NCBI RefSeq assembly: GCF_006345805.1
Contig: NW_021827847.1
Location: forward strand, 1-10,016
Length of the DNA stretch: 10,016 nt
Source: Octopus sinensis
Lineage: Eukaryota
Direction of reading: 5' to 3'
The position numbers and the translations under genes were made by a program. The notes under the pieces are model-generated. The model saw only the letters and a list, made by a program, of their open reading frames with translations. It searched no databases and was not told where the DNA came from. Each line of letters opens with the position of its first letter. Positions within the stretch are counted from its first letter, which is position 1. This document shows positions 1 through 10,016 of this stretch, in pieces.

Positions 1-1248
1 GTGTGGTGGAGTTGGTGATGAGTGGTGGTGGTGGTGTGGTGGTGGTGATTGATGGTGGTGGGGGTGTTGGAGTTGGTGATGATGATGGTGGGGGTGGAGT
101 GGTGGTGGTGGTGGTGGTGTGGTGGTGATGTGGTGGTGGAGTTGGTGATGATGATGGTGGTGGAGTTGGCGGCGACGGTGGTGGTGGCGGCGATGGTGGT
201 GGTGATGGTGGTGATGGCGGCGATGGTGGTGGTGATGGTGGCGGCGATGGTGGTGGTGATGGTGGCGGCGATGGTGATGGTGGTGGTGGTGGTGGTGATG
301 GTAGTGGTGGTGGTGGTGATGGTGGTGGTGGTGGTGGTCATGGTGGTGGTGGTGGTGATGGTAGTGGTGGTGGTCGCGGTGGTGATGATGGTGGTGGTGG
401 TCGCGGTGGTGATGGTGGTGGTGGAGTTGGTGATGGTGGTGATGGTGGTGGTGGTGGCGGCGATGGTGGTGGTGACGGCGCTGGTGGTGGTGGTGGTGAT
501 GGTGGTGATGGTGGCGGCGATGGTGGTGGTGATGGTGATGATGGTGGTGGTGGTGATGGCGGCGATGGTGGTGGTGATGATGGTGGTGATGGTCGCGGTG
601 GTGATGGTGGGGGTGGAGTTGGTGATGGTGGTGATGGTGGTGGTGGTGGCGGCGATGGTGGTGGTGGCGGTGATGGTGGTGGTGGTGGTGATGGTGGTGG
701 TGATGGTGGCGGCGATGGTGGTGGTGATGGTGGTGGTGGTGGTGGTGGTGATGGTAGTGGTGGTGGTCGCTGTGGTGATGATGGTGGTGGTGGTCGCGGT
801 GGTGATGGTGGTGGTGGTGGAGTTGGTGGTGGTGGTGGAGATGGCGGCGATGGTGGTGTTGGCGGCGATGGTGGTGGTGACGGCGCTGGTGGTGGTGGTG
901 GTGATGGCGGCGATGGTGGTGGTGATGATGGCGGCGATGGTGGTGGTGATGGTGATGGTGGTGGTGATGGTAGTGGTGGTGGTCACGGTGGTGATGATGG
1001 TGGTGGTGGTCGCGGTGTGGTGGTGGTGGGGTGAGTGGTGTGGAGTGGTGATGGAGGTGGTGATGGTGGTGGTGGTGGCGGCGATGATGGTGGTGGAGGC
1101 GCTGGTGGTGGTGACGGCGATGACGGCGCTGGGGTGGTGGTGGTGATGGCGGCGATGGTGGTGGTGATGGTGATGGTGGTGGTGGTGGTGATGGTAGTGG
1201 TGGTGGTCGCGGTGGTGATGATGGTGGTGGTGGTGGTGGAGTTGGTGA
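1..1248. repeat. Degenerate trinucleotide repeat (GGT)n with GAT/GGC/GGA/CGC variants and higher-order recurring blocks
   Basis: Almost entirely GGT/GAT/GGC triplets, with recurring blocks such as GGTCGCGGTGGTGATGATGGT and GGAGTTGGTGAT. The poly-Val/Met ORF 49-1146 is a by-product. Confidence 0.9.
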
Positions 1249-1380: not shown

Positions 1381-1586
1381 GTTAATCCAAACAGGAAAGC
1401 ACAAAAAAAACACAACAACGCAAGGACGTGGAGCAAATATAGTATTATTGGACGATAAGGAAAGAAGGAAAGAAGGAGGGTTTAACGTTTCGAGGGGAGC
1501 TCTTCGTCGGAAACATAGGAGAAGGAAAGATCCAGAGAAGGGAAGACAGAGGGAAAAATCGCCAACGGTACACCCGAGGTCACATT
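1381..1586 (-). mobile_element. ~205 bp interspersed repeat, PLE pseudo-LTR-like (family A, copy 1), carrying an HHR-like motif
   Basis: Reverse complement of 7031-7240 with scattered substitutions; flanked by (TA)n on both sides. Confidence 0.7.
1480..1514 (-). ncRNA. Degenerate minimal hammerhead ribozyme motif (core CCGACGA, U4C)
   Basis: Minus strand reads GUUU-CCGACGA-A-GAG-CUCCC-CUC-GAA-ACGU-U-AAAC. Confidence 0.45.
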
Positions 1587-3701: not shown

Positions 3702-3773
3702 GGCCAAAATAAAACTCTGAGTTTCGGATGCCGAGGTGGAAATCCACAACACCATCTCTTCAGTTATCGGGCC
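3702..3773 (-). ncRNA. Hammerhead-like motif with long stem II
   Basis: AUAA-CUGAAGA-GAUG..(GUGG AUUU CCAC)..CAUC-C-GAA-ACUC A GAGU-U-UUAU; stem I extends via GGCC/GGCC. Confidence 0.5.
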
Positions 3774-3840
3774 GAATAACTGAAGAGAAGGTGTTGTAGA
3801 TTTCCACCTCGGTATCTGAAACGCAGAGTTTTATCTTGGC
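3771..3840 (+). ncRNA. Hammerhead-like motif, more degenerate inverted copy
   Basis: GCCGA-AUAA-CUGAAGA(3780-3786)...GAAA(3818-3821)-CGCAGAGU-U-UUAU-C-UUGGC. Confidence 0.4.
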
Positions 3841-4438: not shown

Positions 4439-4697
4439 GGAGTTAAGGTTATTTGCCAACATAACATGGTTGTCCTGGTTTAGGACGAATGTTGCTGTTA
4501 TTTAGCCCCAGGAGACATCGTCTTCAGCTGGCTATACGACACAATCTGTGTCCTTATATTTTTCCCTTGTTTGAAAATATAAGGACACAGATCGTGTCGT
4601 ATAACCAGCTGGAAACGATGTCTCCTGGGGCTAAATTACAGCAACATTCGTCCTAAACCAGGACTGCCATGTTATGTTGGCAAATAATCTTTGCTCC
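4439..4697. repeat. Foldback inverted repeat, ~124 bp arms, ~11 nt loop
   Basis: 4439-4562 is the reverse complement of 4574-4697 with a few mismatches. Confidence 0.92.
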
Positions 4698-4932: not shown

Positions 4933-5093
4933 TATTGTTTTGAGCTGAGTGGGGGTGCTAGATTCCCTTGTTCGAAAATATAAGGACACAGATCGTGTCG
5001 TTTAGCCAGCTGGAGACGATGTCTCCTGGGGCTAAATTACAGCAACATTCGTCCTAAACCAGGACTGCCATGTTATGTTGGCAATCTTTACTC

Positions 5094-7030: not shown

Positions 7031-7236
7031 AATGTGACCGCGTGTGTACCGTTGGCGATTTTTTTCCCTCCGTCTTCCCATCTCTGGATCTTTCCTTTTC
7101 CTATGTTTCTGACGAGGAGCTCGGCTCGAAACGTTAAACCCTCCTTCTTCCCTTCCTTCCTGAGCGTCCAATAGTACTATATTTGTTCCACGTCCTCGCG
7201 TTGTGGTATTTTCTCTTTGTGTTTTCATGTTTGGAT

Positions 7237-7580: not shown

Positions 7581-7710
7581 AAGGAACACACGTGCAAACA
7601 AGGGAGTCAGAGAAAGGCAGAATCCACCTATATCTGAACACTACTATGGAAGTATTCCGTAAAAAAACCTTTCTTCTAATTTTTCTAAATTTTTCTAAAT
7701 TTAATTATTT

Positions 7711-7760
7711 AATCGTTACAGTGAAAAGGTCTCAAATGACCGAAACCGGTACTGAAGATT
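7711..7760 (+). ncRNA. Degenerate minimal hammerhead motif (family D) within a ~240 bp insert between (TA)n tracts (7570-7807)
   Basis: AAUC..CAG-UGAAAA-GGUC-UCAAAU-GACC-GAA-ACCGGU-A-CUG..GAUU; the 5' core deviates from CUGANGA. Confidence 0.45.
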
Positions 7761-7802
7761 CACTATAAAATCATCTTAGCATTTTCTATTTTTGACTTGT
7801 TT

Positions 7803-7852
<50 letters not shown>

Positions 7853-8253
7853 GAAGGTATATTCCGTTAAGAACAAAGCAGTGAACATAACTGAGCTAGT
7901 TCACCCTTAGAATTATCAACTTGCCAGTAGTGTTACGATATACTTCTAAGTCTAGGTTTGGGCATTCGTCGTGTGTGAAAACAAAATTGAATAAGATAGA
8001 ATCAACAAGGAGTACGGTTGGACAGTTATTTTTTAATTAGAACACATGATTCGTTACAAGGTCTCTCTCTCTATCCGCTCAGTCGAAGTCGACTCTCGGT
8101 TACTCGATGGATCAGTGTCCTCCAGTCAGTTCTATCCTGGGACGCTTCTTTCAGATTGGCTATGTCCATTCCGGTATCACTCTTGATGGTGTCAAGCCAG
8201 CGGGTTCTTGGTCGGCCTCTTCCTCTCTTGCCACTGACCATTCCGTATATATG

Positions 8254-8331
<78 letters not shown>

Positions 8332-8335
8332 GAAG

Positions 8336-8388
8336 GAGCTTCTACAGGACTAGAACTGTTTCATTCAAAAGGAATCATCAGGAAGCCC
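8336..8388 (-). ncRNA. Type I hammerhead ribozyme motif (family E, inverted copy)
   Basis: GGGCUUC-CUGAUGA-UUCCUUUUGAAU-GAA-ACAG-UUCUAGUC-CUGU-A-GAAGCUC. Confidence 0.6.
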
Positions 8389-8460
8389 TGACTGGAGGAC
8401 ACTGATCCAACGAGTGACCGAGAGTCGACTTCGACTGAGCGGAATATATATATAATATCA

Positions 8461-8513
8461 GAGCTTCCTGATGATTTCTCTTGAATGAAACAGTTCTAGT
8501 TCTGTAGAAGCTC
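8461..8513 (+). ncRNA. Type I hammerhead ribozyme motif (family E)
   Basis: GAGCUUC-CUGAUGA-U-UUC-UCUU-GAA-U-GAA-ACAG-UUCUAGUU-CUGU-A-GAAGCUC: 7 bp stem I, 4 bp stem III, GUA site with predicted cleavage after A8506. Confidence 0.72.
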
Positions 8514-8601
8514 CTTCTATATAATAAATTAATTTACTCTGCTATTATTGAGTACCTTATTTACTGTGGTTAACCCCGACTCAACCGGGACCTACAAATA
8601 T

Positions 8602-8643
<42 letters not shown>

Positions 8644-8825
8644 ATATATATATCGCTCAGTCGAAGTCGACTCTCGGTCACTCGTTGGATCAGTGTCTGT
8701 CCTCCAGTCAGTTCTATCCTAGGCCGCTTCTTTCAGACTGGCCATGCCCATTCCGGTATCACTCTTGATGGTGTCAGCCAGCGGGTTCTTGGTCGGCCTC
8801 TTCCTCCCTTGCCACTGACCATTCC

Positions 8826-8880
<55 letters not shown>

Positions 8881-9050
8881 TATATCCGCTCAGTCGAAGT
8901 TAACTCTCGGTCACTCGTTGATCAGTGTCTTCCAGTCAGCTCTATCCTGGGCCGCTTCTTTCAGATTGGCCATGTCCATCCGGTATTACTCTTGATGGTG
9001 TCAAGCCAGTGGGTTCTTGGTCGCTCTTCCTCTCTTGCCACTGACCATCC

Positions 9051-9085
<35 letters not shown>

Positions 9086-9249
9086 CTCAAGTCGAAGTCG
9101 ACTCTCGGTCACTCGTTGGATCATTGTCCTCCAGTCAGTTCTATCCTGGGCCGCTTCTTTCAGATTGGCTATGTCCATTCCGGTATCACTCTTGATGGTG
9201 TCAAGCCAGTGGGTTCTTGGTCGGACTCTTCCTCTTGCCATGCCATTCC

Positions 9250-9304
<55 letters not shown>

Positions 9305-9320
9305 TATATCATATGTATAA

Positions 9321-9685
9321 CTGCTCAGTCGAAGTCGACTGTCGGTCACTCGTTGGATCATTGTCCTCCAGTCAGTTCTATCCTGGGCCGCTTTTTCAGG
9401 GTTGCCATGTCCATTCCGGTATCACTCTTGGTGGGTCAAGCCAGCGGGTTCTTGGTCGGCCAATTCTCTCTTGCCAGGATCATCTGAGCATGATGTCCTT
9501 CTCCAGGGTTTTCTCCGACTAATATGACCGAAACATGCCAATCTATGCTTGGTGATCCTAGCTTCTAACGACATTTTCGGGCCTGAATCGCTTAAGAACT
9601 TCTCCATTGGCGAGCCTCGCTGTCTTCTCCAGTACCAAAGCTCGAATGCATTAATTCTCTTCTGGTCAGCTTTCTTTAGTGTCCA
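9321..9685 (-). pseudogene. Longer RTE ORF remnant (post-RT C-terminal region), frameshifted
   Basis: WTLKKADQKRINAFELWYWRR...SLEARITKHRLACFGHISR corresponds to RTE/BovB WT.KK...RI.AFELWCWRR...YFGH. Confidence 0.85.
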
Positions 9686-9941
9686 TATATATATACACAT
9701 ATATATACACACACATATATATACACACATATATACACACATATATATATCTATCTATCTATCTATCTATCCGCTCAGTCGAAGTCGACTCTCGGTCACT
9801 TGTTGGATCAGTGTCCTCCAGTCAGTTCTATCCTGGGCCGCTTCTTTCAGACTGGCTATGTCCATTCCGGTATCACTCTTGATGGTGTCAAGCCAGTGGG
9901 TTCTTGGTCGGCCTCTTCCTCTCTTGCCACTCACCATTCCG

Positions 9942-9974
<33 letters not shown>

Positions 9975-10016
9975 CTGCTCAGTCGAAGTCGACTCTCGGT
10001 CACTCGTTGGATCATT

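What the first reader, a model, noticed from the sequence alone, without database searches (positions are those of the whole stretch)
8461..8513. Best-formed hammerhead: 7 bp stem I, real stem III, GUA site, unusual U-U at base of stem II
All core nucleotides are canonical, and stem III (ACAG/CUGU, 8 nt loop containing CUAG) can close as a monomer, unlike minimal PLE HHRs. The usual G10.1-C11.1 pair is replaced by U-U. The inverted copy keeps stem I through an A-U to G-U change. It is the best candidate for an active variant ribozyme.
Basis: partly seen in the sequence, partly recalled or inferred. Interest (0 to 1): 0.7.

Follow-up and report, generated by a model that had tools for sequence, protein, structure and literature searches.

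The report
Jumping gene whose RNA starts hammerhead
This is one dead stub among thousands of copies of a Penelope-type jumping gene that carries a hammerhead-shaped RNA motif; its odd U-U pair is already known from related elements, but the copies' ends suggest that the gene's RNA likely begins on the motif's first letter and that the motif would cut mainly when two copies pair.

Summary
The motif is real: a type I hammerhead in the pseudo-LTR of a Hydra-clade Penelope-like retrotransposon, with 5,548 exact pattern matches in this genome. U10.1-U11.1 is family-wide (76 of 77 arms) and published: 14 of 25 Hydra families, and an axolotl hammerhead with it self-cleaves. The seventh stem I pair (G8461) and the 'A-U to G-U' change are insertion-junction bases. 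Stem III is predicted to be far more stable as a dimer. This copy has no promoter and folds back on its own mirror arm. Unexpected: of 54 sampled copies truncated near the motif, 24 end exactly at the first stem I base, often with a non-genomic G, and intact copies have TATAAA at -29. The capped RNA therefore likely starts with the ribozyme. A hairpin is predicted to block the monomer and to be displaced by dimerisation. About 1% of copies start at the cut site, so templates were mostly uncut. Cleavage and the start site are untested. The scan noted similar Hydra stubs on other DNA of this genome; none of the listed notes mentions the start-site reading.

The parts
8462..8512 (+). Type I hammerhead motif of the long arm (+1 to +51); native stem I is 6 bp (8462-67 with 8507-12)
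8461..8461 (+). Non-genomic G at -1 (likely the copied cap or a junction base); gives the apparent seventh pair
8468..8474 (+). Core CUGAUGA (C3-A9); N7 is U or A among subfamilies
8475..8486 (+). Domain II: U10.1 (8475) opposite U11.1 (8486), three pairs, 4-nt variable loop; weak
8487..8506 (+). GAAA, stem III with 8-nt loop holding the CUAG palindrome (8496-99), U16.1 and A17; predicted cut after A8506
8503..8521 (+). Predicted blocking hairpin (+42 to +60) that sequesters the cut site and the 3' strand of stem I
8514..8596 (+). Rest of the pseudo-LTR and tail; fixed 3' end of the long arm, followed in tandem copies by the ORF start 77 nt after the tail motif
8326..8387 (-). Inverted short arm (+2 to about +62) with a junction G at 8387 and a stem II mismatch
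8388..8460 (+). Spacer between the arms: 56-nt 3' end of an RTE-like LINE (55 of 56 identical to the copy at 9770), TA run, and a 4-nt fold-back piece
   Evidence: RTE label recalled from the translated motif
8246..8331 (.). Left (TA)n target
8598..8653 (.). Right (TA)n target

Best explanation
The motif is the hammerhead in the pseudo-LTR of a high-copy Hydra-clade Penelope-like retrotransposon, and it likely works as a mostly-off ribozyme at the very 5' end of the element's RNA that would cut only when two copies pair or the element's protein refolds it. Shown: family membership, ORF link, head-to-head two-arm insertion in (TA)n, family-wide U-U, TATAAA at -29, pile-up of copy 5' ends at +1. 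Inferred: RNA polymerase II starts at the first stem I base (A8462 here) and the extra G is the copied cap. Predicted: once +60 is transcribed a hairpin buries the cut site; the palindromic stem III lets two RNAs, or the two ribozymes of one tandem transcript, form a double hammerhead that displaces it. Most RNA would thus stay capped and uncut and serve as mRNA and template. The window copy itself is a promoter-less by-product: a short transcript copied to its 5' end, folded back with a captured LINE piece, and inserted in a TA run.
For: 5,548 exact matches, control 0. In 14 of 20 loci fetched by the ORF start the motif lies about 177 nt upstream of the ATG, and a second copy lies 4.6-5.8 kb downstream in 6 of them. 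ORF pieces show RWR, DKT, YRDD, CxCX5C, GIY-YIG-like and CxxC..E..N..CxH motifs, as described for Hydra in PMC8557442 section 11; atlas hits are RT / HTH_animal / GIY-YIG clusters at 0.95-0.99. In 100 tail-anchored copies taken in genome order: 46 read through the TATA, 24 end at +1, 2 end between -29 and -2, 28 end inside the motif (with L176 and L156 reassigned by hand). Of the 24, 11 have G at -1, 9 are palindromes, 4 other. First 100 of 1,461 hairpin-junction rows = 66 loci by hand count: 33 palindromes, 33 with the extra base, 0 with the native -1 base of the main subfamily. TATA-to-+1 spacer 23 nt in 63 of 70 and 22 nt in 7, while 12 of 23 spacer sites vary among subfamilies and 0 of 6 TATA sites do. 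The same AGCT palindrome at +48 gives only 9 hairpin loci. p(stem I) falls from 0.99-1.00 to 0.07-0.36 between 56 and 64 nt in all 6 sequences tested; dimer energies -25 to -32 against -18 to -21 for two monomers, and the window dimer's best fold has the intermolecular stems I and III. An untemplated 5' G is read as cap copying in L1 (PMC9341517, passages). The anole Penelope hammerhead cuts only with its protein and uncut RNA is the main template (PMC11167929).
Against: No cleavage assay and no RNA 5'-end data: only contigs were available, which cannot show starts. Stem II is weak in every fold (p 0.27 or less); in 4 of 6 sequences the forced double hammerhead lies 2.4-7 kcal/mol above the best dimer fold. 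The tail is about as conserved as the core across five subfamily copies, so conservation inside this genome does not single out catalysis. Copies are related by descent (about five lineages). The extra G also fits transient fold-back. The 9-locus control has very short arms that may be disfavoured. A second family in the window has a TATA-like box at a similar distance but a much less sharp 5' boundary (by eye). Of four published Hydra consensus ends read, one shows a clear TATA, one a weak one, two none. D. virilis Penelope uses a TATA-less internal promoter (PMC2377424, passages). No fully intact ORF among 20 loci.
Confidence: 0.6

Rival explanations
1. Active monomeric variant ribozyme: stem III closes on its own and the RNA cuts efficiently, for example co-transcriptionally before the blocking hairpin forms.
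For: In the 50-56 nt window p(stem I) is 0.88-1.00 and the hammerhead fold is within 0.3-3.1 kcal/mol of the best fold. Fungal and protist Penelope hammerheads with long helix III cut as monomers (PMC4209133). Modest excess of 5' junctions at +44 to +46: 22 events against 6 at +47 to +49 and at most 6 at +42 to +43 (hand counts).
Against: Only 1 of 100 sampled copies starts at +46 against 24 at +1; 18 hairpin loci near the cut site against 1,461 matches at +1. The excess is confounded by TA microhomology with the target. No loop 1 exists for the tertiary contact if the RNA starts at +1.
Confidence: 0.15
2. The 5' pile-up at +1 is a reverse-transcription artefact (fold-back on the mirror of stem I or on the AGCT palindrome), not a start site; the motif is an ordinary internal Penelope hammerhead of low activity.
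For: Mirror fold-back would also add the same extra base; 9 of 24 ends at +1 are AGCT palindromes; 14 joins use the stem I microhomology (hand count); TATAAA can occur by chance in AT-rich DNA.
Against: 0 of the 24 ends at +1 show the completed mirror fold-back junction; the identical AGCT at +48 gives 9 loci; 46 of 100 copies read straight through +1; ends are 2 in the 28 nt upstream against 26 in the 28 nt downstream (with hand reassignments); TATA spacing is fixed while the spacer diverges.
Confidence: 0.2
3. The motif is a catalytically dead relic kept only because the pseudo-LTR is needed for protein binding or priming.
For: Weak AU-rich stem II with U-U, blocking hairpin, almost no copies starting at the cut site, tail equally conserved; hammerhead mutants do not impair insertion in vitro in PMC11167929.
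Against: Shared variants inside the motif fall only on N7 and the loops (p 0.003); U-U above covarying stem II sequences recurs in three phyla; the axolotl U-U hammerhead cuts 22% as monomer and more as dimer.
Confidence: 0.15

Closest known systems
Hammerheads of Hydra-clade Penelope-like elements (Craig et al. 2021, PMC8557442; section 11, passages, supplement parts 2 and 53 read)
   Same: Type I motif near the 3' end of a (TA)n-targeting element with C-terminal endonuclease; U-U at the base of stem II in 14 of 25 listed families; the same stem III letters and cut-site A in several families.
   Different: Loop III is 8 nt with an inner palindrome (1-3 nt in all 25 listed families); stem II only 3 bp and AU-rich; unit 4.6-5.8 kb because of a long microsatellite-rich 3' region (published ones under about 3 kb); not the listed Hydra-1_Obim motif; a start site at the ribozyme was not seen in the parts read.
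Axolotl HHR_Amex2 retrozyme hammerhead (PMC7229834, passages) and natural U10.1-U11.1 hammerheads (PMC3088659, section 8)
   Same: U-U at the base of stem II; activity shown for Amex2, higher as dimer; U-U called the best tolerated mismatch.
   Different: Those are non-coding tandem repeats or microbial motifs with loop-loop contacts; this one sits in an autonomous element and has an open stem I.
Poseidon_Ac hammerhead of the green anole (PMC11167929, parts 1-2 of 4 read)
   Same: Two fixed 3' ends (tail), uncut RNA as main template, no RNA ends found at the cut site.
   Different: Different clade; that motif overlaps the ORF start and was shown to be protein-assisted; here it lies about 177 nt upstream of the ATG and is untested.
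Minimal metazoan PLE hammerheads (PMC4209133, parts 1-2 of 4 read)
   Same: Pseudo-LTR location, palindromic helix III region, dimer logic.
   Different: They keep G10.1-C11.1 with an extra base before it, have a long helix II and almost no helix III.

Membership tests
Type I hammerhead ribozyme | Core CUGANGA, GAAA, UH around three stems, stem I open | tested here: met
   0 of 500 shuffles under the strict descriptor
Type I hammerhead ribozyme | Purine-pyrimidine pair at 10.1-11.1 | tested here: not met
   U-U in 76 of 77 arms; a published tolerated exception
Type I hammerhead ribozyme | Match to an Rfam hammerhead model | tested here: not met
   no hit at 8461-8513 up to E 5
Type I hammerhead ribozyme | Site-specific self-cleavage | not testable with these tools
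   only weak genomic hint at +44 to +46
Type I hammerhead ribozyme | Loop 1 - loop 2 tertiary contact | not tested
   no loop 1 if RNA starts at +1; no search for a substitute contact was made
Penelope-like element | Single RT plus GIY-YIG ORF between pseudo-LTRs in partial tandem | tested here: met
   Pfam gave no RT or GIY-YIG hit for two ORF pieces, so the domains rest on motifs and atlas clusters
Penelope-like element | Inverted 5'-truncated copy and tail at one end | tested here: met
   93 long and 46 short arms in 100 loci, 3 cut by the region
Hydra clade | RWK-like motif, DKT in place of DKG | tested here: met
   RWR and DKT in L067, L068, L077
Hydra clade | CxCX5C linker, no CCHH, CxxC and CxH around E and N of a C-terminal endonuclease | tested here: met
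   L069 translation read by eye
Hydra clade | (TA)n insertion | tested here: met
Hydra clade | Short element (under 3 kb) | tested here: not met
   4.6-5.8 kb between ribozymes; described as general, not diagnostic
Hydra clade | Placement in the RT phylogeny | not tested
   reference proteins were not available as stored sequences
Non-LTR retrozyme | Non-coding head-to-tail units of a few hundred bases | tested here: not met
   linked to a coding element; copies are head-to-head stubs

The most novel reading that the evidence does not exclude
Hydra-clade Penelope elements transcribe from a TATA promoter so that the capped RNA begins on the first base of a hammerhead held off by a built-in hairpin; pairing of two ribozymes through the long palindromic loop III is a switch that removes the cap and turns translated RNA into an uncapped or circular form. 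Thousands of genomic stubs are natural 5' RACE products of this RNA, cap G included.
Probability: 0.3. Interest if true: 0.7.

Novelty: new member of a known kind. Interest (0 to 1): 0.42.

Why it matters
What hammerheads do in Penelope-like elements is an open question (stated in PMC8557442 and PMC11167929). This family offers a sharp test: a predicted start site, a predicted off-switch and a predicted dimer trigger lie within 90 bases, and thousands of insertions record which RNA forms were copied. It also shows that descriptors demanding a paired 10.1-11.1 position, and Rfam, miss a family of over 5,000 motifs. The U-U pair itself is not news.

Tried and rejected
Rfam: no hammerhead hit at the site. 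Pfam and PDB sequence searches on ORF pieces: nothing useful. Sequencing runs: no RNA holder listed on record, only contigs; laying four runs showed the motif present in all four and T8501 to be a rare variant, but cannot show starts, ends or expression; a second laying, meant to compare depth upstream and downstream of +1, gave no result, so that comparison is open. First guess that the element was a Naiad, or that the Neptune-like ORF in L042 was the parent: dropped once the ORF start was found joined to the tail. 3' splice site at the start of stem I, as in D. virilis Penelope: rejected because no constant upstream exon is joined and the AG is kept. Compensatory A-U to G-U change: rejected as a junction base. 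Cut-site hot spot: only a weak, confounded excess. The pairwise-mutagenesis paper (PMC9901934, passages) gave no value for the 10.1-11.1 double mutant. One script failed on an index error and was rerun; its reference panel misclassified minor subfamilies, so one search is the count used. Literature searches for a start site or TATA box at a Penelope hammerhead found none; the library lacks most subscription papers, and the 2017 papers on dimeric PLE hammerhead variants and on Terminons (recalled) were not read.

Full report
Observation. A descriptor scan finds the motif at 8468 (+) and its mirror at 8381 (-); the strict form (stem I of 7, stem III of 3 beyond A15.1-U16.1) occurred 0 times in 500 block-wise shuffles. 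Rfam has no hammerhead hit here up to E 5, and folding energy alone is not unusual (z -0.6).

The family. The window is the start of a small contig in a 2.7-Gb animal genome, probably an octopus (my recall of its repeats, and earlier scan notes; not determined by a call). An exact core pattern gives 5,548 matches and 0 for the reversed control. In 100 tail-anchored copies taken in genome order (first 100 of 2,657; fetched), 77 arms match a full-length core pattern: 76 have U-U and 1 has U-C at the base of stem II, and all 77 keep the three stem II pairs. Among 37 ungapped read-through copies, shared variants hit 0 of 38 core and stem positions, 4 of 13 tolerant positions (N7, loops) and 12 of 23 upstream spacer positions. 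The tail is also well conserved in five subfamily copies, which weakens this as proof of catalysis.

The parent element. L029 joins the tail to an ORF start. In 20 of the 40 loci found with that start, 14 have the motif about 177 nt upstream of the ATG and 6 of these have a second one 4.6-5.8 kb downstream. The ORF pieces carry RWR, DKT, YRDD, CxCX5C and the CxxC/CxH endonuclease motifs that define the Hydra clade in PMC8557442 (section 11); Pfam was silent, atlas clusters were RT and GIY-YIG types. No intact ORF was seen. Insertions are two-armed, head to head, in (TA)n, with a long and a short 3' end, as described for PLEs.

U-U is known. By my count of File S2 of PMC8557442, 14 of 25 Hydra families from three phyla have it; PMC3088659 reports natural U10.1-U11.1 as the best tolerated mismatch; axolotl HHR_Amex2 has it and cleaves 22% as monomer and better as dimer. 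The seventh stem I pair is not native: intact copies have T, A or C at 8461. The G of the inverted copy is the base at the junction with a captured LINE piece. What does differ from all 25 listed Hydra motifs is the 8-nt loop III. The stem III segment is a near-palindrome: -12.8 to -15.2 kcal/mol as a duplex against -2.8 to -4.0 for two hairpins.

Folding in context. In all six sequences tested (window and five subfamily copies) a hairpin at +42 to +60 takes the cut site and the 3' strand of stem I; p(stem I) drops from 0.98-1.00 at 56 nt to 0.07-0.36 at 64 nt. Two molecules together are 7-12 kcal/mol better than two monomers, and for the two dimers printed the best fold has stems I and III formed between molecules; the forced double hammerhead is 0.6-7 kcal/mol above the best dimer fold, and stem II stays weak. 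These are predictions without Mg2+ or tertiary contacts. The window copy, read from upstream, pairs with its own mirror arm and has no TATA box.

Where the RNA begins. Of the 100 copies, 46 read through an upstream TATAAA, 24 end exactly at the first stem I base, 2 end in the 28 nt upstream and 28 end inside the motif, only 1 of them at the cut site (L176 and L156 reassigned by hand; L121 and L122 are one duplicated event). Eleven of the 24 have a G at -1, nine are palindromes. In the first 100 of 1,461 hairpin-junction rows (66 loci by hand count) 33 have the extra base, 33 are palindromes and none continues with the native base of the main subfamily. The TATA box starts at -29 in 63 of 70 intact copies matched by the pattern and at -28 in 7. 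A start site at +1 with the cap copied as G fits all of this; such Gs are read that way for L1. Fold-back artefacts are the rival: the same AGCT at +48 gives 9 loci (an imperfect control) and none of the 24 shows the completed mirror junction. I put the start site at about 65%. Support from other families is partial, and D. virilis Penelope is TATA-less. Searches found no report of this arrangement; the library is incomplete.

Is there a trace of cutting? Hairpins near the cut site number 18 loci, and in 10 of 15 independent events an arm stops at +46 (hand count). Junctions at +44 to +46 number 22 events among 70 rows (plus 14 stem I microhomology joins), against 6 among 68 rows at +47 to +49 and at most 6 among 32 rows at +42 to +43; the other rows are point changes or fold-backs from farther upstream (hand counts). 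TA microhomology with the target may explain the excess. At about 1% of copies, cut RNA was at most a minor template, in line with PMC11167929.

Verdict. A real, ordinary-type hammerhead of a new Hydra-clade family; the flagged U-U is published and this copy is a dead stub. Odds that the family motif cleaves in some native setting about 70%, as an efficient monomer about 15%. The interest lies in the likely cap-proximal position and the predicted off/dimer-on switch, both untested. Earlier scan notes describe comparable Hydra stubs elsewhere in this genome; a look-up by this sequence found none. Papers seen: PMC4209133 and PMC11167929 parts 1-2 of 4; PMC8557442 passages, section 11 and supplement parts 2 and 53 of 59; PMC3088659 passages and section 8; PMC7229834, PMC2377424, PMC9341517 and PMC9901934 passages only.

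Noticed in passing
window 3703-3840: Head-to-head palindrome of a second hammerhead family (long domain II, 1-nt loop III); 88 exact pattern matches; read-through copies have a TATA-like box about 30 nt upstream of an extended bulged stem I.
   Followed up: partly
window 7105-7136 (+) and about 1480-1510 (-): Minimal PLE-type hammerhead with palindromic stem III; arms 1400-1558 and 7061-7219 are 88% complementary.
   Followed up: no
window 7708-7769: Degenerate hammerhead-like stretch, weak Rfam HH9 hit (17 bits, E 3.4).
   Followed up: no
window 8062-10016: Tandem 5'-truncated 3' ends (about 180 nt) of an RTE/BovB-like LINE on the minus strand, separated by (TA)n; label recalled from the translation.
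   Followed up: partly
window 4439-4697 and 4963-5084: 124-bp palindromic repeat with a third partial copy.
   Followed up: no
window 8326-8387 versus 8462-8523: The two arms of this insertion differ at three internal positions, whereas arms are usually identical; assembly error or two RNA templates.
   Followed up: no
L029:1172-1554, L065, L071: Copies in which the ORF start jumps to a ribozyme beginning at +1 with the extra G, two of them at nearly the same ORF position.
   Followed up: partly
L042:1270-3554 and L070:6175-7162: A Neptune-like PLE ORF and a second Hydra-like ORF lie beside copies of this family.
   Followed up: no
window 3-1247: Long (GGT)n-like low-complexity array at the contig start.
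   Followed up: no
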